A program made the translations under genes and the position numbers. Positions 1 through 24,212 of a DNA stretch of 24,212 bases are shown one piece after another. The notes under the pieces are model-generated. The model saw nothing but the letters and a program-made list of their open reading frames with translations. It did no database searches and was not told the DNA's origin. This DNA comes from a virus (taxonomy: Duplodnaviria; Heunggongvirae; Uroviricota; Caudoviricetes), in the IMG/VR virus record IMGVR_UViG_2529292882_000019, one strand, 5' to 3'. How positions within the stretch are numbered: the stretch's first letter is position 1; each line of letters starts with the position of its first letter.

Positions 1-1236
1 CTACGATAACCGCGCATTCAACATGGCTATCTGTTCGTCGTTCATGTCATCAATCCACATACCGTAAATTTCATACACCATCTGCGCAGTTTCATGCCCC
101 ATTTGGCTGGCTATAAATGCCGGGTTCGCTCCTGCCGTCAACAGCCAGCAGGCAAAAGTATGCCGCGTATGGTACGGATTACGGCGGCGAATACCAGCAC
201 GTTTTACTGCTGCATTCCACCTTGCCCCCAAACTGCTTACCGAGTAATAAGGTTTCTGTTTTCCGTTACACACCCTTGGCATGAAAACAAAATGCAGTTT
301 TTGCTTTTCGGTTCTGCCGTACTCCCGATGATAAAAGGTGATTTCGCTTTTGCGATGATGCCCGGTCAGTTTGTATTGCTCCTTCAGTGCTTCAAGAGCA
401 GGCTGCAGTAGTGTTACTGTCCGGATCCCGGCATTTGTTTTTGGGGGACCGAACATATCAAGTATCGTCAGGTTTCTTCTGACATTCACTATTCCCTTTT
501 CGAGATCCACATCCTCCCACGCCAGAGCAGCCAGTTCCCCGTGACGAAGTCCTGAGTAAACGGCAAATTTCCACAAGTTCTGGCTCTGTCCTTTTTCACT
601 TTCCATTAATGCATTGAATTCTGTTTTAGATAACGGATCAGGCTTTATTCTGTTTCGCTGTAATTTTTTTACTCCTTCAAATGGTTTGGTTGATATAAAT
701 CCCGACTGATACGCAAAACGTAACAGCGAACAGAGCAGGGCGATATAGTTATCAACTGTGCGCACGGTTCTTCCTTTTTTGTTGGATCTTGGATTATCCA
801 GGTAAAGCGTTTCTCCATGCAGCAGTTCATTCCGGTAGTTTAAGATATCGCTATAACGAATATGTGATATCGGGGTACTTTCACAAATTATTATTCTGAG
901 TGTTTTTAATTGTGATTTCGTTTTCTTCATTGTGTTTGTTGTTAACTCTGTCTCTTTAATTTTTGTCCAGATATCACAAAGCTCCCCGAACGTTTTTATG
1001 ACTCTCGTTGTCACCATTTTTGCCCCAGCGCTGGACTGGGGAAAACGTCTTAAATACTCAAATTCACCGGAGTTTATTTCATGAACTATCAGCGCTCTTA
1101 AATTTCCGGCCTTTTTAATATTACTGTTTGTAATCTCCCAGCCTTTTAATGTTTCCCGACATCGTTTTCCTCGAAACATGAACCAGATGCGAATGTATCT
1201 ACCTCTAATCTCGACACCTGTTGGTAATTTAGACAT
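1..1236 (-). CDS. intR: Tyrosine site-specific integrase (phage integrase, Rac IntR-like), 411 aa
   Basis: 411-aa minus-strand ORF. C-terminal region carries the tyrosine-recombinase catalytic signature (HTRHTF ... Y in AGIRRRNPYHTRHTFACWLL...MVYEIYGMW). Start overlaps the stop of the excisionase-like gene. First gene of a minus-strand early operon. Confidence 0.9.
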   Translation of the reverse strand: MSKLPTGVEIRGRYIRIWFMFRGKRCRETLKGWEITNSNIKKAGNLRALIVHEINSGEFEYLRRFPQSSAGAKMVTTRVIKTFGELCDIWTKIKETELTTNTMKKTKSQLKTLRIIICESTPISHIRYSDILNYRNELLHGETLYLDNPRSNKKGRTVRTVDNYIALLCSLLRFAYQSGFISTKPFEGVKKLQRNRIKPDPLSKTEFNALMESEKGQSQNLWKFAVYSGLRHGELAALAWEDVDLEKGIVNVRRNLTILDMFGPPKTNAGIRTVTLLQPALEALKEQYKLTGHHRKSEITFYHREYGRTEKQKLHFVFMPRVCNGKQKPYYSVSSLGARWNAAVKRAGIRRRNPYHTRHTFACWLLTAGANPAFIASQMGHETAQMVYEIYGMWIDDMNDEQIAMLNARLS

Positions 1237-8105: not shown

Positions 8106-8387
8106 TTGGCTATGAACTTAAGAGACTATTTAAAAGAGAAACATATCACCCAGCTACAGTTTGGGAAGCTAACGGGTTTATCTCAGGTGCATGTAAGTCG
8201 AGTGCTGGGGGGCTATGAAAGATTCAGCCCTGAAAAAGCATTACGTGTTGCTGAAGTAACGAATTTCGAGGTTACACCTCATGAACTCCGGCCTGATATC
8301 TACCCGAATCCAACCGACGGTTTACCTGTTGGATGTAAGGCTAACACACAAAATACACAGGAGTTGATTCATGAAAATCAGGCATGA
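8106..8387 (+). CDS. ydaS: Cro-like HTH regulator (YdaS-like), 93 aa
   Basis: HTH motif ITQLQFGKLTGLSQVHVSRV. First gene of the rightward operon, divergent from the repressor. Confidence 0.7.
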   Translation: MAMNLRDYLKEKHITQLQFGKLTGLSQVHVSRVLGGYERFSPEKALRVAEVTNFEVTPHELRPDIYPNPTDGLPVGCKANTQNTQELIHENQA

Positions 8388-8793
8388 GCACATCGAATCA
8401 GTGCTGTTAGCCCTGGCAGCCGAAAAAGGGCAGGCGTGGGTCGCTAACGCAATTACTGAAGAATATCTGCGCCAGGGGGGAGGTGAATTGTCTCTGACAC
8501 CAGGCAAGGACTGGAACAATCAGCAGAACATCTATCGCCGTTGGTTAAAAGGTGAAACGGAAGCGCAAAGGGAAAAAATTCAGAAGCTGATCCCAGCAAT
8601 TCTGGCAATCCTTCCGCGGGAGCTGCGTCACCGACTCTGCATCTTCGATACCCTGGAACGCCGTGCATTACTGGCGGCGCAGGAAGCGTTGAGTACGGCA
8701 ATTGATGCGCATGATGACGCAGTCCAGGCCGTTTACCGTAAAGCGCATTTCGGCGGTGGTGGAGCGTCCGACGATTCTGTTGTAGTGCATTGA
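8371..8793 (+). CDS. ydaT: YdaT-like protein (CII-like functional analogue), 140 aa
   Basis: 140-aa ORF overlapping the ydaS-like stop, with GGAG RBS. Size and position match Rac YdaT. Confidence 0.65.
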   Translation: MKIRHEHIESVLLALAAEKGQAWVANAITEEYLRQGGGELSLTPGKDWNNQQNIYRRWLKGETEAQREKIQKLIPAILAILPRELRHRLCIFDTLERRALLAAQEALSTAIDAHDDAVQAVYRKAHFGGGGASDDSVVVH

Positions 8794-14421: not shown

Positions 14422-14577
14422 ATGAAGCAGCAAAAGGCGATGTTAATCGCCCTGATCGTCATCTGTTTAACCGTCATAGTGACGGCACTGGTAACGAGGA
14501 AAGACCTCTGCGAGGTACGAATCCGAACCGGCCAGACGGAGGTCGCTGTCTTCACAGCTTACGAACCTGAGGAGTAA
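14422..14577 (+). CDS. hokD: Hok/Gef-family type I toxin, 51 aa (HokD/RelF-like)
   Basis: MKQQKAMLIALIVICLTVIVTALVTRKDLCEVRIRTGQTEVAVFTAYEPEE: single TM helix plus conserved C-terminal periplasmic region of Hok toxins. Followed by a strong terminator. Confidence 0.8.
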   Translation: MKQQKAMLIALIVICLTVIVTALVTRKDLCEVRIRTGQTEVAVFTAYEPEE

Positions 14578-15630: not shown

Positions 15631-15920
15631 TGGTGGACTTACGTAAAGCGACGCGGGGGCAGATGTGCACCGTCAGAATTCCTGGCTACTGCAATCACGA
15701 TCCGGAAACGTCTGTGCTGGCGCATTACCGACTGGCGGGAACGTGCGGAACAGCGATAAAGCCACACGATATGCAGGCAGCGATTGCCTGTAGCTCGTGC
15801 CACGATTTAATCGACGGGCGGGTAAAAACCAGCGATTACACCAAAGAAGAATTACGCCTGATGCATGCAGAAGGTGTTTTTCGCACACAAGAAATCTGGA
15901 GAAAGGAGGGATATTTATGA
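15630..15920 (+). CDS. nin-region Cys/His-rich protein (DUF1364/YbcO-like), 96 aa
   Basis: 96-aa ORF with multiple Cys/His (CTVRIPGYCNHD...CSSCHD). Overlap coupling on both sides. Confidence 0.55.
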   Translation: MVDLRKATRGQMCTVRIPGYCNHDPETSVLAHYRLAGTCGTAIKPHDMQAAIACSSCHDLIDGRVKTSDYTKEELRLMHAEGVFRTQEIWRKEGYL

Positions 15921-16453
15921 TTTACCCAACGAATACAGGAAAAAGCGGAGAACACCTTCGTCTCACCACGCTGGAAAGTGTCTGGATTCAGGGAAAACTA
16001 CGTATGTGGGGGCGCTGGTCGTATATTGGCGGCGGCAGGTCAGGGAATATGTTTAACCAGTTGCTGGCATCCCAAAAAATGACAAAAACAGCCATCAATG
16101 AAGCCCTGCGCAGATTGAAAAAAGCGGGAATTGATAAACCAGAGTTGGAAGCATTTTTGCGTGAGATGATCGAAGGAAAGCAAAAAAGCTGGTTAACTCA
16201 CTGCACTGATGCAGAGGCACTAAAAATTGATAGTGTTATAGGTGAAGTTCTGGCGGATCATCCAGGACTACTAAATGTCCTGAGTCAGCGTTATGTGGGG
16301 CGAGGGATGAGTAAGAGAAGGATGGCAGAGTTATTAAACGAACAGTACCCAGAGTGGGCGTTGATTACATGCCGACGTCGTGTTGAGCAGTGGTTGCGTG
16401 TTGCTGAGTTCATTTTGTATTCACCTATGAGAGAAGCGTTCGATTATGCTTAA
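15917..16453 (+). CDS. Putative late-gene antiterminator (Q-like), 178 aa
   Basis: AAGGAGGG RBS with ATGA overlap to the upstream gene. Last gene before the terminators, tRNAs and lysis cassette, the canonical Q position. Family not confirmed by sequence recall. Confidence 0.5.
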   Translation: MIYPTNTGKSGEHLRLTTLESVWIQGKLRMWGRWSYIGGGRSGNMFNQLLASQKMTKTAINEALRRLKKAGIDKPELEAFLREMIEGKQKSWLTHCTDAEALKIDSVIGEVLADHPGLLNVLSQRYVGRGMSKRRMAELLNEQYPEWALITCRRRVEQWLRVAEFILYSPMREAFDYA

Positions 16454-16817: not shown

Positions 16818-16893
<76 letters not shown>

Positions 16894-16896
16894 TAT

Positions 16897-16971
<75 letters not shown>

Positions 16972-17710: not shown

Positions 17711-17729
17711 TTTACAGGAGAAAAAAGTA

Positions 17730-18121
17730 TGTCTGAACCCTTATCCGGTTCCGGCACGGCTGTGGCGCTCGGCGGGGCGACGGTATTCGGGCTGTTTACC
17801 GGAACGGATTTCGGGATTGTGTTTGGTGCGTTCGCCGGGGCGTTATTTGTGGCAACGATGCCGCAGGCGCTTTCAGCCTGGCGTGTGGCGGCGCATTTTC
17901 TGGTGTCGTTCATTATCGGCGTGCTGGGCGCAGAGGTTCTGGCATCCTGGCTGGTAAAGCATACAGGGTTTGACGGTGCGCCTGTCGACGCACTGTGTGC
18001 AGTGCTGGTGTCAGTGGTGTCGGTGAAGATTCTCTCGTTCATCCACCAGCAGGATATTGCATCACTGGTGTCCGGCCTGTTCTCCCGTCTGCGGGGTGGA
18101 GGAGGCGGCAATGTTAAGTAA
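17730..18121 (+). CDS. Putative holin, about 130 aa multi-TM protein
   Basis: AGGAGA RBS. Gly/Ala-rich hydrophobic segments. First gene of the lysis cassette after the late terminators. Confidence 0.6.
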
Positions 18122-18389
18122 CATTCCCGGATTGCTGAATGTAGCGTTATGCACGGTTATCGTGCTGACGCTCTTTTTTTATCGTCGCCGTGATTCCAGA
18201 CATAAACCGCTGATGTCATGGCTGGCCTGGCTGCTGATGCTGCTGTATGCCTTTGCGCCCCTCAGCTATCTGTGTGGTCGCCCGTTAGCAACGGGCTGGC
18301 TGGAAGTGCTTTTTAACCTGCTGTTCTGCGTGCTGGTGATACGCGCACGTGGGAACGTCACAAAAATCTTTGTATTACGAAGGCGCTGA
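18111..18389 (+). CDS. Second small lysis-cassette membrane protein (holin/antiholin-like), 92 aa
   Basis: Two or three hydrophobic helices. Overlap coupling with the holin stop. Lies between holin and endolysin. Confidence 0.55.
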   Translation: MLSNIPGLLNVALCTVIVLTLFFYRRRDSRHKPLMSWLAWLLMLLYAFAPLSYLCGRPLATGWLEVLFNLLFCVLVIRARGNVTKIFVLRRR

Positions 18390-18390
18390 T

Positions 18391-18807
18391 ATGAAGTCGA
18401 AAGATGAAATTTTTGACGAAGTTCTGGGAAAAGAGGGCGGTTACGTCAATCACCCGGATGATAAAGGCGGACCGACAAAATGGGGTATTACGGAAAAAGT
18501 CGCCCGCGCTCACGGATATCAGGGCGATATGCGTGACCTGACACGCGAACAGGCGCTGGAAATCCTTGAGGCGGATTACTGGTTCGGACCACGCTTTGAT
18601 CAGGTGGCCGCATTATCCTCTGATATTGCTGCAGAGTTGTGTGATACCGGTGTGAATATGGGGCCGTCCGTAGCATCGAAAATGCTCCAACGCTGGCTGA
18701 ACGTTTTCAACCTGCAAGGCAAATTGTTCCCGGATATGGACGCAGACGGGCGTATCGGCCCCCGCACGATTAATGCACTACGGACTTATCTGCAAAAACG
18801 TGGCTGA
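18391..18807 (+). CDS. Endolysin, GH108-type N-terminal domain; probably truncated in its C-terminal peptidoglycan-binding domain by insertion of the Mu-like element at 18805
   Basis: N-terminus MKSKDEIFDEVLGKEGGYVNHPDDKGGPTKWGIT is characteristic of GH108 phage lysozymes. ORF ends at a TGA formed by the first bases of the Mu-type terminal sequence, after only about 25 aa of the expected C-terminal domain. Confidence 0.7.
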   Translation: MKSKDEIFDEVLGKEGGYVNHPDDKGGPTKWGITEKVARAHGYQGDMRDLTREQALEILEADYWFGPRFDQVAALSSDIAAELCDTGVNMGPSVASKMLQRWLNVFNLQGKLFPDMDADGRIGPRTINALRTYLQKRG

Positions 18808-18877
18808 AGCGGCGCACGAAAAACGCGAAAGCGTTTCACGATAAATGCGAAAACTTTAGCTTTCGCGCTTCAAATGA

Positions 18878-18919: not shown

Positions 18920-19645
18920 TCACTTAGGGTATGGCTGAACCTTGAATAGCTTGGTATTTAGTCGCTTCCTTGCTCGCTTGTTCAGGAACCTGATGTAGCG
19001 ATACTGATTAAATTTGTGCACCACGGCACGCTCTTTATTAGCCCGTAAATACACGCCTCGTTGTCCACCGCGTTTAATCGCGTTCATCGTTATCTCGTGA
19101 TACCACTCACCATCCAGCTCGTAGAACGTGCTTTCATGGCTGCCAATAAAATCAAAATTTGACGCCTGATACACAACGCCAGCACGTCCGCAGCGTTCGT
19201 CTGCAAAAGACTGAACCCACTCCACTGACGGATACAGTAACCTTATGGTTTTCAGTGCATAACTGATGGCCCGTGATTCAGAGTTGCGGGGCATGTCGTC
19301 GTGTAGCCACATGCGGTTCAACTCCATATAGCCCCGGTTATCCGTTTCAAGCACGACACGACGACCTGAGTTGGGGTTAAGGGCATATCCCCACTGGAGA
19401 ACGCCAACCAGATCGCGTCCGCTGAATACTCCCAGGTGGAGGTAAGAGTTATTCACAAAACGGCGGGAATAGTGCTTTGTCTGAATAATTGTGCGGGCCA
19501 GCCAGCAGGATATGGTTTCAACGCGCAGCTCCTTTGAACCATAGCCAACAATCTGGCCTTCATACTCAATAACGCACGGTTTCGTCAGAATGCGTGATTT
19601 TTTCTCTTTTCCCACAATGTTTCTCCGTGGGATGCTCGCAGGCAT
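18920..19645 (-). CDS. mom: Mom-like DNA modification protein (anti-restriction adenine modification)
   Basis: ORF immediately downstream of and overlapping com, next to the Mu-type end. The ORF-track start may overestimate the N-terminus because mom starts inside com. Confidence 0.7.
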
Positions 19646-19754
19646 TCAGCATTATGATGTGACGTTTGCAACGCGGACACCTGATTTCAATGTGATCAAA
19701 GGAATCCGCCTTAAATAACAGTTTGTTGCAGTTTTTACAGCGAATTGATTTCAT
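19566..19754 (-). CDS. com: Com, zinc-finger translational activator of mom, 62 aa
   Basis: [42 protein letters not shown]... with CxxC...CxxC zinc finger. 62 aa, overlapping the mom start. Strong GGAGGTGA RBS. Confidence 0.85.
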
Positions 19755-19828: not shown

Positions 19829-19863
19829 GATCTGTATTACCGATCGATTTGATTGATTCGATC
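19829..19863. promoter_or_regulatory. Cluster of three GATC (Dam) sites upstream of com-mom, overlapping the gin 3' end; putative Dam/OxyR-controlled mom regulatory region
   Basis: GATC at 19829, 19842 and 19860 within 35 bp, about 75-110 bp upstream of com. Mu mom transcription is known to depend on methylation of three upstream GATC sites. Confidence 0.55.
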
Positions 19864-20430
19864 GTCGTTTTCTATATGCGTTCGTTTCGCGGGGTGTTTT
19901 TTATACAGAGTTGACAGGGCCACATCGTAGATCAATGCAACCTGCTTGCGGGGGATTCCTTGTGCTAATAAACGCCCGGCCTGCTCCCATTCCGCTTTGG
20001 TTAGTTTAGGTGGTCGCCCACCAATACGGCCTTTATTTCTGGCGGCAGCAAGTCCAGCCATCGTTCGCTCGATGATTAGTTCTCGTTCCATCTCAGCCAG
20101 GGCACCCATAACGTGGAAGAAAAAACGCCCCATTGGAGATGACGTATCAATACTGTCAGTAAGACTGCGAAAATTAATCCCTCGCTCTCGTAATTCCCCT
20201 ACGAGAGAAATCAAATGTTTCATGCTTCGCCCGAGGCGATCCAGTTTCCAGACAACAAGTGTGTCACCTTTTTGAAGGCGCTTTAAAGCGCGTTTTAATC
20301 CAGGTCTGTCTGTCCTTGTTCCGCTTAATTTATCTTCAAATATTTGTTCACATCCTGCACAAACAAGAGCGTTTCGTTGCAGGTCTGTATTCTGGTCATT
20401 TGTTGATACCCTTACATAGCCAATCAGCAC
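19837..20430 (-). CDS. gin: Gin/Pin-family serine DNA invertase, 197 aa
   Basis: N-terminal catalytic serine motif (YVRVSTNDQ) and C-terminal HTH. Adjacent to a gix-like crossover site and an invertible tail-fibre segment. Confidence 0.9.
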   Translation of the reverse strand: MLIGYVRVSTNDQNTDLQRNALVCAGCEQIFEDKLSGTRTDRPGLKRALKRLQKGDTLVVWKLDRLGRSMKHLISLVGELRERGINFRSLTDSIDTSSPMGRFFFHVMGALAEMERELIIERTMAGLAAARNKGRIGGRPPKLTKAEWEQAGRLLAQGIPRKQVALIYDVALSTLYKKHPAKRTHIENDDRINQIDR

Positions 20431-20503
20431 TCTGGATCTCCCGTTTAAAAGCGCAAATCATGCCATGCAGGCCGGAAACAGCCATTATCTAAAACCTCGG
20501 TTT
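19837..20503. repeat. Left arm of an inverted repeat of at least 667 bp (partner 23546..24212), comprising gin plus the outer half of the gix site
   Basis: Coordinates map as x to 44049-x. Identity checked at both ends of the arm and across the junction, and the two gin translations are identical. Identity stops at 20503/23546. Confidence 0.85.
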
Positions 20504-20510
20504 GCAGGAA
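20485..20510. promoter_or_regulatory. gix-like 26-bp recombination site (gin-proximal)
   Basis: TTATCTAAAACC-TC-GGTTTGCAGGAA, two mismatches to the recalled gix consensus TTATCCAAAACCTCGGTTTACAGGAA. Central TC at 20497-20498. Confidence 0.75.
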
Positions 20511-21749
20511 ACGGTAAATCAGGCTTCTGGCGCATTACAAAAAAACCAGAACGGCGCGGATATTCCTGATAAGGGTCGCTTCCTGAGTAACATAAATGTT
20601 TACAGCAAAGGCGAGGTGGATAAGAAAAAAGGAATGCGGCAGTACGCATTTAATGCGCCGTCTAATGCAGTTGGTGGAAAGTGGTATCCAGTTATTTTCC
20701 GGCGTTCCACAGGCAGCACTGGCGAGCTGGCTTCCAGAGTGATTATAACGACCACATCTGCCGGTGGTAATTACGAAATGAATAACTGCGAATTCAATGG
20801 AATGGTAATGCCTGGTGGCTGGACTGATCGTGGCTCATATGCGGCAGGTTATTTTTCGACGTATCAGACTAATGAGCGCGCAATCCATTCCATTGTAACA
20901 AGCCTTAAAGAAGATGATGTATGCAGCGTTTTTTACGTTGAAGGCAGGGCTTTTCCTGTGCGGGTTTCTGCTGAAGAAGGGCTAACGGTTATTGTTCCAA
21001 CTCAGGATTATACCGTCGGTCAAACAACATATAAGTGGGGAGCAACTAATCCCGCGACAGAAAGCACGAACGCACAAGCTATTCTGGATTTTAACAATGG
21101 GCGAGGGTTTTATTGTTCTCACTCAATATTCGGTATTAATGCCATTTTTAGCGGAAATCTGGGGATTGGAACGGCTAATGCCCTGGGTGGCAATTCAATA
21201 GTTTTAGGAGATAACGATACCGGGTTTAAACAAAATGGTGATGGGGTGCTGGATGCTTATGCTAATGGTGTGCATGTATTCCGCTTTAGAAATGGTTCAG
21301 CAATATCATTAAAGGGTATTCAGGCTGGGGAAAGTAAGTTATTCACACTTTCAAGTGCAAATACCGCTGCCCGTAATGCATCATTTAACTTGTGGGGAAA
21401 TTCGTCAAGACCAACTGTTGCAGAGCTTGGTGATGATTCAGGCTGGCATTTCTATAGTCAGCGAAATACAGATAACTCGGTGACATTTGCTGTAAACGGT
21501 CAGATACAACCAAGCAACTGGGGTAACATTGATTCCCGATATGTGAAAGATGTTCGGCTTGGTTCACAGCAATATTATGGTGTGAACAACTGGCAAACAT
21601 GGAACTTCCAGTGCCCTTCAGGTCATGTATTGTCTGGTATAAATGTTCAGGATACAGGGTCAAATTCTGCCGATAATATAGCTGGCGTTTATTACAGACC
21701 AGTTCAAAAGTATATAAATGGCACCTGGTATAATGTAGCGAGCGTTTAA
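20502..21749 (+). CDS. Tail-fibre variable C-terminal module (S'v-like); no own start codon expected
   Basis: Frame opens immediately inside the gix site (track start is TTG). Gly/Asn/Ser/Thr-rich sequence typical of receptor-binding tips. Followed by a tail-fibre assembly gene. Confidence 0.7.
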
Positions 21750-21750
21750 T

Positions 21751-22278
21751 ATGATGCACTTAAAGAACATAAAAGCGGGTAACGCTAAAACACTGGAACA
21801 GTATGAGTTAACAAAGAAGCATGGAGTCATCTGGCTTTACACTGAAGACGGGAAAAACTGGTATGAGGAAGTGAAGAACTTTCAGTCAGACACAATAAAG
21901 ATTGTTTACGATGAAAATAATATTATTGTCGCTATCACCAGAGATGCTTCAACGCTTAATCCTGAAGGTTTTAGCGTTGTTGAGGTTCCTGATATTACCT
22001 CCAGCCGACGTGCTGACGACTCAGGTAAATGGATGTTTAAGGATGGTGCTGTGGTTAAACGGATTTATACGGCAGATGAACAGCAACAACAGGCAGAATC
22101 ACAAAAGGCCGCGTTACTTTCCGAAGCGGAAAGCGTTATTCAGCCACTGGAGCGCGCTGTCAGGCTGAATATGGCGACGGATGAAGAGCGTAGCCGACTG
22201 GAAGTATGGGAACGCTACAGTGTTATGGTCAGCCGTGTGGATACGGCAAAGCCAGAATGGCCACAAAAGCCTGAGTAA
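21751..22278 (+). CDS. Tail fibre assembly protein (U'-like), 175 aa
   Basis: N-terminus [11 protein letters not shown]... typical of Tfa/U chaperones. Paralogous to the minus-strand copy at 22307..22840. Confidence 0.8.
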
Positions 22279-22306
22279 AAATTAAGGCCCGATATCGGGC
22301 CTTCTC

Positions 22307-22840
22307 TCATTCTGGTTGTTCGGGAAACGTTACTGGCAAGCGGGAAGTGTCTGTAGATTCGACTTTTTGCGCAAAGAGCATCCACTCTGTTAATTTTTGT
22401 TTATTCTCGTCGGAAATGATGCCCAGCCGTAGCTGTGAGTCCCATAGCTGGGTTTTATCCCTGACAAGTTGCAACAGGCTTTGCTTTTCATTTTCCGATT
22501 GTTGCCTCTGTTCTTCCTCGGTATAAGTTCGCTTTATCACTACGCCATCTTTGAACATCCATTTACCCGAAATGTCAGCACGGCGATTTGCTGTAATATC
22601 AGGTAATTCAACGACGCTTGCGCCTTCCGGATTAATTGCTGAAACATCCTTTTCAATACAAATAATAACGCCGTTATGGTCATAGACCATTTTCAAAGTG
22701 TCTGGCTGGAAATTCTTTTGTTCCTCATACCAGTTTTTTCCATCCTCTGAATAAAGCCATTTGATGTTAAATTGTTTCGTTAGCTGGTATTGCTCTTTTG
22801 TTTTAGGGTTGCCAGCAGTAATGTTTTTTAAGTGCATCAT
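22307..22840 (-). CDS. Tail fibre assembly protein (U-like), 177 aa
   Basis: Paralogue of the plus-strand Tfa (MMHLKNITAGN...). Convergent arrangement typical of invertible tail-fibre segments. Confidence 0.8.
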   Translation of the reverse strand: MMHLKNITAGNPKTKEQYQLTKQFNIKWLYSEDGKNWYEEQKNFQPDTLKMVYDHNGVIICIEKDVSAINPEGASVVELPDITANRRADISGKWMFKDGVVIKRTYTEEEQRQQSENEKQSLLQLVRDKTQLWDSQLRLGIISDENKQKLTEWMLFAQKVESTDTSRLPVTFPEQPE

Positions 22841-22842
22841 CG

Positions 22843-23556
22843 TTAAATACTCCCCGCGTTATACCACGTTCCATTAATGCAATACTGAATTGGTCTTGCC
22901 TGAGTTGTATCAATTAATTCGTCACGGTTCCCGTTAACTGAACCCGTAACGACATAACCTGACCTGTCAGACCAGCCGGGGCCATTCCATGTCTGAACAG
23001 ATGACAGACCGCCAAGGCGAATACCTGTAATAAACCTTGAGTTACATTCTGCCTGAGTATATGCACCAACATCTCCCGCTGAAGGTTTTCGTGTCGTGGT
23101 ATAGAAATCTGACCAACCTAATTCAAACCCATAACCATCACGAGCCGACCTGTAGGAAATGCCACCATTTTTATAATTCACACGGAATTGTACGGCAGGA
23201 CAGCTACCAGCATTTATATTAAAGTGAAGAATTAATGCAGATGCACCACCAATTAGGGCGTTATATGCACCACTATCCCAATTCCATCCAACGGATGTAT
23301 CACCATTAACAGTATTACCTGTTTGTCGGAGTGCAAATGCATTGACATTTTTGGCACTAATTGAAATATCGCTAGAACCATCAAAACCAACTCCAGCAAT
23401 TTTTCGTGCTGTTTTCAGCTTTGTTGCAGTAGCGGCATTGCCGGACAGTTCCCCAGAAAGGCCACCACTGAATGTTTGTCGATTGGTCCAGGTATTCGCC
23501 GTACTGAGTAACGGTATTTTTTCCCCGCTTGTGCCGAGTTCTCGTAAACCGAGGTT
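22843..23556 (-). CDS. Alternative tail-fibre variable C-terminal module (Sv-like); frame open from the gix site, no own start
   Basis: Hand-translation shows the minus-strand frame open from 23556 to 22843 (track shows only the GTG-initiated 112-aa part). Gly/Asn/Ser/Thr-rich tip sequence. Confidence 0.7.
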   Translation of the reverse strand, partial: NLGLRELGTSGEKIPLLSTANTWTNRQTFSGGLSGELSGNAATATKLKTARKIAGVGFDGSSDISISAKNVNAFALRQTGNTVNGDTSVGWNWDSGAYNALIGGASALILHFNINAGSCPAVQFRVNYKNGGISYRSARDGYGFELGWSDFYTTTRKPSAGDVGAYTQAECNSRFITGIRLGGLSSVQTWNGPGWSDRSGYVVTGSVNGNRDELIDTTQARPIQYCINGTWYNAGSI

Positions 23557-23564
23557 TTAGATAA
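23539..23564. promoter_or_regulatory. gix-like 26-bp recombination site (distal)
   Basis: Reverse complement reads TTATCTAAAACC-TC-GGTTTACGAGAA. Outer half-site identical to the site at 20485-20510. Confidence 0.7.
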
Positions 23565-24212
23565 TGGCTGTTTCCGGCCTGCATGGCATGATTTGCGCTT
23601 TTAAACGGGAGATCCAGAGTGCTGATTGGCTATGTAAGGGTATCAACAAATGACCAGAATACAGACCTGCAACGAAACGCTCTTGTTTGTGCAGGATGTG
23701 AACAAATATTTGAAGATAAATTAAGCGGAACAAGGACAGACAGACCTGGATTAAAACGCGCTTTAAAGCGCCTTCAAAAAGGTGACACACTTGTTGTCTG
23801 GAAACTGGATCGCCTCGGGCGAAGCATGAAACATTTGATTTCTCTCGTAGGGGAATTACGAGAGCGAGGGATTAATTTTCGCAGTCTTACTGACAGTATT
23901 GATACGTCATCTCCAATGGGGCGTTTTTTCTTCCACGTTATGGGTGCCCTGGCTGAGATGGAACGAGAACTAATCATCGAGCGAACGATGGCTGGACTTG
24001 CTGCCGCCAGAAATAAAGGCCGTATTGGTGGGCGACCACCTAAACTAACCAAAGCGGAATGGGAGCAGGCCGGGCGTTTATTAGCACAAGGAATCCCCCG
24101 CAAGCAGGTTGCATTGATCTACGATGTGGCCCTGTCAACTCTGTATAAAAAACACCCCGCGAAACGAACGCATATAGAAAACGACGATCGAATCAATCAA
24201 ATCGATCGGTAA
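23546..24212. repeat. Right arm of the inverted repeat; reaches the window end, so its true extent is unknown
   Basis: Reverse complement of 19837..20503. Confidence 0.85.
23619..24212 (+). CDS. gin: Second, identical copy of the gin invertase gene in inverted orientation
   Basis: Translation is identical to the gin copy at 19837..20430. Lies within the inverted repeat 23546..24212. Confidence 0.85.
   Translation: MLIGYVRVSTNDQNTDLQRNALVCAGCEQIFEDKLSGTRTDRPGLKRALKRLQKGDTLVVWKLDRLGRSMKHLISLVGELRERGINFRSLTDSIDTSSPMGRFFFHVMGALAEMERELIIERTMAGLAAARNKGRIGGRPPKLTKAEWEQAGRLLAQGIPRKQVALIYDVALSTLYKKHPAKRTHIENDDRINQIDR

What the first reader, a model, noticed from the sequence alone, without database searches (positions are those of the whole stretch)
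18391..18860. Mu-like transposable-phage end inserted into the lambdoid endolysin gene
The GH108-type endolysin ORF stops after only about 25 residues of its expected C-terminal cell-wall-binding domain, exactly where a Mu right-end sequence begins (TGAAGCGGCGCACGAAAAACGCGAAAG... at 18805), followed by mom-com-gin-G segment in Mu order. The 5 bp before the junction (GTGGC) fit the Mu target preference. This is a prophage-in-prophage insertion that probably inactivates lysis of the host lambdoid prophage; no spanin or structural genes follow within the window.
Basis: partly seen in the sequence, partly recalled or inferred. Interest (0 to 1): 0.6.

Follow-up and report, generated by a model that had tools for sequence, protein, structure and literature searches.

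The report
Mu-like phage inserted in prophage endolysin
A Mu-type transposable phage has jumped into the cell-wall-cutting (endolysin) gene of a resident lambda-like prophage in Escherichia coli B799; this is a clean textbook example of Mu's random insertion, not a new kind of element.

Summary
Window 18391-18807 encodes a 138-aa GH108 endolysin. It is 100% identical to the first 138 residues of an intact 181-aa endolysin in a near-identical, uninterrupted prophage of E. coli SC418. From 18805 the sequence is the exact terminal base of the Mu/SfMu right end (119/121 and 121/121), followed by mom, com, gin and an invertible G segment. The stop codon TGA is the first three bases of the Mu end.

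The reciprocal junction was found: Mu left end, then GTGGC, then endolysin codons 139-181, then lambdoid late genes. Exact protein look-ups place both junctions in one genome, E. coli B799 (ESTG_03895 and ESTG_04974). The 5-bp target duplication GTGGC is therefore confirmed.

Corrections:
- The element is a Mu relative (about 97% identity in mom-com-gin, a different immunity region and a different tail-fibre module), not Mu itself.
- About 44 residues of the Pfam binding domain are kept, not about 25.
- GTGGC fits only the degenerate core of the Mu target consensus.
- The last 674 bases of the window are a fold-back copy of gin at the scaffold end, most likely an assembly artefact.

Loss of lysis and late-gene function in the lambdoid prophage is inferred, not shown. 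The finding is ordinary and of low interest.

The parts
15797..16453 (+). Q-like late antiterminator of the lambdoid (Rac-like) prophage; marks the start of the late transcription unit that the insertion interrupts
   Evidence: Pfam DUF1133 / Phage_antitermQ; PHROG anti-termination protein Q-like, E 2e-76
17729..18121 (+). holin gene 1 of the lysis cassette
   Evidence: Pfam Phage_holin_8; PHROG holin; gene call L005 9339-9731 = window 17729-18121
18111..18389 (+). holin gene 2 of the lysis cassette
   Evidence: Pfam Phage_holin_3_7; PHROG holin
18391..18807 (+). truncated GH108 endolysin, 138 of 181 codons; the stop codon TGA (18805-18807) is supplied by the Mu end
   Evidence: protein = EIG43271.1 ESTG_03895 of E. 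coli B799
18800..18804 (+). GTGGC, one copy of the 5-bp target-site duplication
   Evidence: The same GTGGC directly follows the Mu left end at the other junction (L004), in the same genome
18805..18919 (-). right end (attR) of the Mu-like phage, terminal base at 18805; the first 78 nt are identical to Mu
   Evidence: 119/121 to Mu, 121/121 to SfMu
18920..19645 (-). mom (DNA modification)
   Evidence: Pfam Mom, E 2e-75; same position as in SfMu and Mu
19566..19754 (-). com (translational activator of mom)
   Evidence: Pfam Zn_ribbon_Com; overlaps mom as in Mu
19837..20430 (-). gin, serine invertase of the G segment
   Evidence: Pfam Resolvase + HTH_7
20485..20510 (-). gin-proximal gix recombination site
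   Evidence: 26-nt site, inverted relative to the site at 23539-23564
20499..23550 (.). invertible G segment: tail-fibre variable part (20616-21749 +), tail-fibre assembly genes (21751-22278 + and 22307-22840 -), second tail-fibre variable part (22843 to about 23540, -)
   Evidence: Pfam Caudo_TAP twice; PHROG tail fibre; open frames; about 3.05 kb, against 3.06 kb between the annotated G boundaries in Mu
23539..23564 (+). distal gix site
23546..24212 (+). perfect inverted copy of the outer part of gix plus gin (19837-20503), running to the scaffold end. Most likely a fold-back assembly artefact at the invertible segment, not part of the real phage order.

Best explanation
A Mu-type transposable phage (genus Muvirus, close to Mu and SfMu) transposed into codon 138/139 of the GH108 endolysin gene of a Rac-like lambdoid prophage in E. 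coli B799. MuA-type strand transfer at a 5-bp stagger joined the phage's terminal CA/TG ends to the target and duplicated GTGGC. The phage lies inverted relative to the lambdoid late operon: its right end abuts the 5' part of the endolysin gene and its left end abuts the 3' part. The endolysin now ends at a TGA supplied by the Mu end. It keeps the catalytic domain but loses the last 43 residues of the substrate-binding helix bundle. Inferred consequences: the truncated enzyme is probably non-functional. All lambdoid late genes downstream (ParB-like gene, terminase, portal and so on) are separated from the Q-dependent late promoter by roughly 37 kb of oppositely oriented Mu DNA. The composite element is too large to package. 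The host prophage is therefore most likely disabled, while the Mu-like phage, which replicates by transposition, is unaffected. The insertion, the duplication and the truncation are shown; the functional consequences and the completeness of the Mu-like prophage are inferred.
For: The junction sits exactly at the terminal base of the Mu right end. The reciprocal junction sits exactly at Mu nt 1, preceded by the same 5 bp, and the rest of the endolysin gene then continues in frame. Both junction proteins are annotated in E. coli B799: EIG43271.1 and EIG41384.1, the latter a singleton cluster. The window is 100% identical to GCA_000261385.1 scaffold JH768573.1. The uninterrupted 'empty site' exists in E. 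coli SC418, with 3 SNPs in 3505 nt on the left side and 1 mismatch in 3018 nt on the right side. This argues for a recent insertion into an otherwise intact prophage. Gene content and order match Mu (mom, com, gin, G segment). c, ner and an open N-terminal 365-codon stretch of the transposase A gene lie at the left end. The same repressor type lies next to ten different host genes in ten genomes, which is the behaviour of a random transposer. Mu chemistry (CA ends, 5-bp stagger) is taken from PMC3562280, and gene disruption by randomly integrating Mu-like prophages in E. coli from PMC3603311. The close homologue Sen1395 (PDB 6v3z, E 1e-106) has a substrate-binding six-helix bundle spanning residues 68-180, with groove residues 117, 121, 165 and 167 (PMC6996933). 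Truncation at 138 removes the positions equivalent to 165 and 167 and the last helices.
Against: The interior of the Mu-like phage (about Mu nt 2334 to 31900) was not seen. The window's scaffold ends in the G segment, and the sequence I hold for the other junction stops 2.3 kb into Mu, so completeness is unproven. No experiment shows that the 138-aa protein is inactive or that late transcription is blocked. The catalytic domain is intact, and Q-modified polymerase reads through terminators. GTGGC matches only the core of the CYSRG consensus (PMC7350765).
Confidence: 0.92

Rival explanations
1. The insertion is real, but the element is a degraded Mu remnant (ends plus a few genes) rather than a complete, inducible prophage.
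For: Only 5.4 kb at the right end (about 4.7 kb after discounting the fold-back) and 2.3 kb at the left end could be read. The middle is missing from the sequences available.
Against: Every gene seen is intact: mom, com, gin, both tail-fibre/assembly pairs, c, ner and the open 5' part of A. Both ends are perfect. The interrupted prophage differs from an uninterrupted one by only a few SNPs, so the event is recent. The scaffold break at the G segment is what an invertible repeat produces in a draft assembly.
Confidence: 0.1
2. The endolysin-Mu junction is an assembly chimera, with no real insertion.
For: The source is a draft assembly, and its scaffold end 5.4 kb away does carry an apparent assembly artefact.
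Against: A mis-join would not fall exactly on the terminal nucleotide of the Mu right end. Nor would it be mirrored on another scaffold by a junction at exactly Mu nt 1 with the same 5 bp repeated and the gene continuing in frame.
Confidence: 0.02
3. The 138-aa protein is a natural short endolysin variant, and the Mu end merely lies next to it.
For: A PHROG family of 131 profile positions (phrog_12853, unknown function) matches residues 5-131, so short GH108 entries exist in phage databases.
Against: The protein is 100% identical to the first 138 residues of a 181-aa protein. Its stop codon belongs to the Mu end. The missing 43 codons sit, intact, immediately beyond the other Mu end. The listed full-length (non-partial) members of its 90% cluster are 181 aa. 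The one other exact 138-aa hit (Logan contig L006) is an intact gene cut by a contig end.
Confidence: 0.01

Closest known systems
Escherichia phage Mu (NC_000929) and Shigella phage SfMu (KP010268), genus Muvirus
   Same: The right-end 121 nt are identical to SfMu and 119/121 to Mu. The left-end first 240 nt are nearly identical to Mu. The right end through gin is 97.1% identical to Mu and 97.4% to SfMu. The order mom-com-gin-G segment is the same, as is the 5-bp target duplication.
   Different: The immunity region (most of c, ner, the start of A) has no nucleotide match to Mu or SfMu, and the repressor is 44-49% identical to the 196-aa Mu-c-type proteins among the hits. One tail-fibre variable gene (window 20567-21686) has no match in Mu or SfMu, and the rest of the G segment is only 87-89% identical.
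Mu-like prophages that disrupt E. coli genes by random integration (Bobay et al. 2013, PMC3603311); Sp18 of O157 Sakai (PMC2669165)
   Same: A natural Muvirus-type prophage lacking a tyrosine integrase, inserted inside a coding sequence.
   Different: Here the disrupted gene belongs to another prophage rather than to the host core genome.
Laboratory lambda::Mu insertions (Toussaint 1969, Mol Gen Genet 106:89; recalled from memory, not retrieved)
   Same: Mu inserted within a lambdoid prophage. As I recall, such insertions were used because they are polar on late functions.
   Different: Those were selected in the laboratory with Mu itself. This one is a natural event in an isolate of unknown history and has no phenotype data.
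GH108 muramidases Sen1395 / TtsA (PDB 6v3z, 6v40; PMC6996933) and phage GH108 endolysins
   Same: The N-terminal catalytic domain and the first part of the helical substrate-binding domain match; Sen1395 matches the intact 181-aa homologue at E 1e-106.
   Different: The protein lacks residues 139-181, including two of the four groove positions named in Sen1395.

Membership tests
Mu-type transposable phage (Muvirus) insertion | Element ends 5'-TG...CA-3' carrying the Mu end sequences (MuA binding sites), with the junction at the terminal nucleotide | tested here: met
   Right end: (first 78 nt identical to Mu). Left end: (starts at Mu nt 1).
Mu-type transposable phage (Muvirus) insertion | 5-bp direct duplication of the target flanking the element, in one genome | tested here: met
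   GTGGC at 18800-18804 and after the left end in L004. Both junction ORFs are annotated in E. coli B799.
Mu-type transposable phage (Muvirus) insertion | Uninterrupted target exists elsewhere (empty site) | tested here: met
   The E. coli SC418 prophage is colinear across the site and 99.9% identical on both sides.
Mu-type transposable phage (Muvirus) insertion | Right-end gene order G segment - gin - com - mom | tested here: met
Mu-type transposable phage (Muvirus) insertion | DDE transposase MuA and ATPase MuB | tested here: inconclusive
   The first 354-365 codons of an A gene, 96.6% identical to Mu A at DNA level, are open to the end of L004. The rest of A, and B, lie outside the sequence available.
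Mu-type transposable phage (Muvirus) insertion | Complete genome of about 37 kb between the ends | not testable with these tools
   The scaffold ends in the G segment.
Mu-type transposable phage (Muvirus) insertion | Target matches consensus 5'-CYSRG | tested here: inconclusive
   In GTGGC the central T-G-G fits Y-S-R, while the outer G and C do not fit C and G (consensus from PMC7350765). The preference is weak and not required.
GH108 / PG_binding_3 endolysin | GH108 catalytic domain | tested here: met
   Pfam PF05838, residues 8-91, full profile, E 9e-27
GH108 / PG_binding_3 endolysin | Complete C-terminal substrate-binding domain | tested here: not met
   Only profile positions 2-34 of 76 are present; 43 residues are missing relative to the identical intact protein.
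Lambdoid (Rac-like) prophage | Integrase, recombination genes, repressor, O/P-type replication genes, Q antiterminator, then the lysis cassette, in that order | tested here: met
   Integrase 1-1236 (-), YqaJ/RecT/RecE-type genes, HTH repressor, YdaT, DnaT/lambda-P domains, Q-like gene, two holins, endolysin. Terminase and other late genes follow beyond the insertion.
Gin/Hin-type invertible segment | Serine invertase next to a segment bounded by inverted recombination sites | tested here: met
   Resolvase + HTH_7 protein; 26-nt sites in inverted orientation at 20485-20510 and 23539-23564

The most novel reading that the evidence does not exclude
The nesting may not be a neutral accident. A Mu-type phage landing in a resident prophage's late operon would permanently disarm a competitor that would otherwise kill the shared host on induction, so such insertions could be favoured by selection and over-represented among natural Mu-like insertions. 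A second, independent reading is that the gin-G-gin fold-back at 23546-24212 is a real duplication rather than an assembly artefact.
Probability: 0.04. Interest if true: 0.45.

Novelty: already known. Interest (0 to 1): 0.18.

Why it matters
The finding matters mainly for annotation. ESTG_03895 ('hypothetical protein') is the 5' fragment of an endolysin, and ESTG_04974 is a junction artefact containing its 3' fragment. The two B799 scaffolds are linked through a Mu-type prophage. The lambdoid prophage should be scored as disrupted rather than intact. It is also a tidy natural counterpart of the classical laboratory Mu-in-lambda insertions, and an example of how invertible segments break draft assemblies. 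It opens no new mechanistic question.

Tried and rejected
- Scans of one-genome-per-species contigs for the predicted left junction and for the window's own junction found nothing. B799 is not a species representative there.
- The window's junction is absent from IMG/VR and from 5,426 complete E. coli genomes, where no record covers 80% or more of the junction query.
- I tried to tie the IMG/VR contig to the window through a strain-specific 41-mer. None of the 42 hits came from IMG taxon 2529292882.
- I tried to reach the B799 scaffold through the Mu repressor. The protein is too common (1692 index blocks), so only the longest contigs were read. This did show ten different insertion contexts.
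- A literature search for the assembly and scaffold accessions returned nothing.
- The second 'exact' occurrence of the 138-aa protein (Logan ERR13599937) was rejected as evidence. Its contig simply ends 2 nt after codon 138, with 'AA' as in the intact gene, and it differs at 13 of 1359 positions.
- The megablast extension of intact endolysins to 18814-18817 is chance similarity between TGAAGCGGCGCAC and AAAGACGGCGAAC, not a shifted junction.
- No structure prediction was run, because a crystal structure of a homologue matching at E 1e-106 already exists.

Full report
**What is in the sequence.** The ORF at 18391-18807 (+) starts at an ATG directly after two holin genes and ends at a TGA at 18805-18807. 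Its 138-aa product has a complete GH108 catalytic domain (residues 8-91). It has only the first part of the PG_binding_3 domain, profile positions 2-34 of 76. From 18805 the DNA reads TGAAGCGGCGCACGAAAAACGCGAAAG... Over 121 nt this is 119/121 identical to the reverse complement of the extreme right end of phage Mu, and 121/121 to that of Shigella phage SfMu. The match starts at the terminal nucleotide of both phages. Downstream, on the minus strand, lie Mom (18920-19645), Com (19566-19754) and a Gin-type serine invertase (19837-20430). Tail-fibre and tail-fibre-assembly gene pairs follow. This is the order annotated in Mu and SfMu.

**Is the endolysin truncated?** A search of complete E. coli genomes found no record containing the junction. 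It found many intact homologues, the best in strain SC418. There the gene is 546 nt, encoding 181 aa. The window protein is identical to its first 138 residues and lacks the last 43. In a three-way DNA alignment the window follows SC418 up to CGTGGC (18804) and then switches to the SfMu end. The apparent extension of the BLAST matches to 18814-18817 is chance similarity between the Mu end and the next endolysin codons. The SC418 prophage differs from the window by 3 SNPs in the 3505 nt left of the junction. SC418 therefore serves as the uninterrupted empty site.

**The other end.** If this is a Mu transposition, the other junction should read ...CA, then GTGGC, then AAAGACGGCGAACTG...
- That 22-mer is absent from the species-representative genomes. 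It occurs once in IMG/VR, in contig IMGVR_UViG_2529292882_000022 (locus L004).
- There the Mu left end starts at Mu nt 1 and is nearly identical to Mu over 240 nt. It abuts GTGGC, then endolysin codons 139-181, then lambdoid late genes. This stretch has 1 mismatch in 3018 nt to SC418.
- Inside the left end lie a c-type repressor gene, a ner-like gene, and an A (transposase) gene that is open to the end of the sequence held.

**Same genome?** The window is 100% identical to scaffold JH768573.1 of GCA_000261385.1. Exact-sequence look-ups gave two matches:
- The 138-aa protein is EIG43271.1, ESTG_03895 of Escherichia coli B799, on a scaffold of 996,185 bp.
- A 59-aa ORF that I read across the left junction (MSSRFFFVLQVNQYSGKDGELVM...ERVAV) is EIG41384.1, ESTG_04974 of the same strain B799, on a 254,156-bp scaffold. 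It is the only member of its cluster.

Both junctions, with the 5-bp direct repeat, are therefore in one genome.

**What the inserted element is.**
- It is not laboratory Mu. The right end through gin is 97.1% identical to Mu and 97.4% to SfMu.
- Part of the G segment is 87-89% identical, and one tail-fibre variable gene (20567-21686) has no nucleotide match in either phage.
- At the left end, the first 458 nt are 95% identical to Mu and the A gene is 96.6% identical. The region between them (most of c, ner, the start of A) matches neither Mu nor SfMu.
- The repressor is identical to a protein listed in 1692 index blocks. In the ten genomes shown it lies next to ten different host genes. That is what a randomly transposing phage family looks like.

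**Mechanism.** The following is established knowledge. MuA cleaves at the conserved terminal CA and joins the 3' ends to target phosphates 5 bp apart, and repair duplicates the 5 bp (PMC3562280). The target preference is a weak 5'-CYSRG (PMC7350765). GTGGC fits the central three positions only. Mu-like prophages integrate at random in E. coli and disrupt genes (PMC3603311). The anatomy here matches this exactly. The phage is inverted relative to the lambdoid late operon.

**Consequences (inferred).**
- The close homologue Sen1395 has a crystal structure. Its substrate-binding domain is a six-helix bundle spanning residues 68-180, with groove residues 117, 121, 165 and 167 (PMC6996933). Truncation at residue 138 removes the last helices and the positions equivalent to 165 and 167. 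Misfolding or loss of substrate binding is therefore likely, but untested.
- More important, every late gene beyond the endolysin now lies about 37 kb from the Q-dependent promoter. These include the ParB-like gene, the terminase small subunit (annotated in SC418) and further long late-region ORFs.
- The composite prophage also exceeds any lambdoid capsid capacity. I recall that Toussaint (1969) used Mu insertions in lambda because they are polar on late functions; I could not retrieve that paper.

**The end of the window.**
- Positions 23546-24212 are a perfect inverted copy of 19837-20503, which holds gin plus the outer half of its gix site. The copy continues to the scaffold's last base.
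- The two 26-nt gix sites (20485-20510 and 23539-23564) differ at 3 positions in their G-interior halves.
- The distal junction therefore has the sequence expected in a molecule whose G segment has flipped. I read this as a fold-back assembly artefact, probably fed by a culture containing both G orientations. It would explain why the scaffold stops there and why no Mu tail or head genes follow. It is not evidence about the real gene order.

**Verdict.** This is a real, cleanly documented Mu-type insertion into a lambdoid endolysin gene, with both ends and the target duplication found in one genome. It is an ordinary manifestation of a well-known mechanism. Its value is mostly for annotation of B799.

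Noticed in passing
window 23546-24212 (and 15 nt beyond, to the end of scaffold JH768573.1): A perfect inverted duplicate of gin plus the outer gix half-site (19837-20503) closes the scaffold. It looks like a fold-back mis-assembly at the invertible G segment; the real neighbour should be the constant part of tail-fibre gene S.
   Followed up: partly
window 20485-20510 and 23539-23564: The two gix sites differ at 3 positions in their G-interior halves. The distal junction as assembled (distal interior half joined to the gin flank) is the sequence a flipped G segment would give, which hints that Gin was active in the sequenced culture.
   Followed up: partly
window 20567-21686 (gene 20616-21749, +): This tail-fibre variable part has no nucleotide match in Mu or SfMu. 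The identical 377-aa protein is recorded in E. coli and in Salmonella Montevideo, so it is an exchanged host-range module.
   Followed up: partly
L006 (Logan ERR13599937 contig, 1361 nt): This contig yields exactly the same 138-aa product only because it ends 2 nt after codon 138, where the sequence continues 'AA' as in the intact gene. It shows how exact-protein look-ups can suggest a false second occurrence.
   Followed up: yes
L001 3638-4565 (SC418, downstream of the intact endolysin; same region in L004 8930-9860): No canonical Rz/Rz1 spanin pair is annotated after the endolysin. There is a terminator-like hairpin, a small ORF with a C-terminal hydrophobic stretch, and a 60-aa ORF with a lipobox-like LLVGC (phrog_7528, unknown function) that could be a lipoprotein lysis or exclusion factor.
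   Followed up: partly
window 16818-16893 and 16897-16971: tRNA-Thr(TGT) and tRNA-Gly(TCC) genes lie between the Q-like gene and the holins, as in the SC418 prophage.
   Followed up: no
window 14422-14577 (+) and 8371-8793 (+): A Hok/Gef-family toxin ORF and a YdaT-domain ORF lie in the lambdoid early/nin region (Pfam hits).
   Followed up: no
window 18391-18804 (protein): PHROG family phrog_12853 (131 profile positions, 'unknown function') matches residues 5-131 better than the endolysin PHROG does. Short or truncated GH108 proteins seem to have been clustered as a separate family in that library.
   Followed up: no
L051-L060: The Mu-type repressor identical to the B799 one sits next to ten unrelated host genes in ten assemblies. 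In L057 the A gene is split into two ORFs, and in L055 most of the early region is missing, so some copies are decayed.
   Followed up: no
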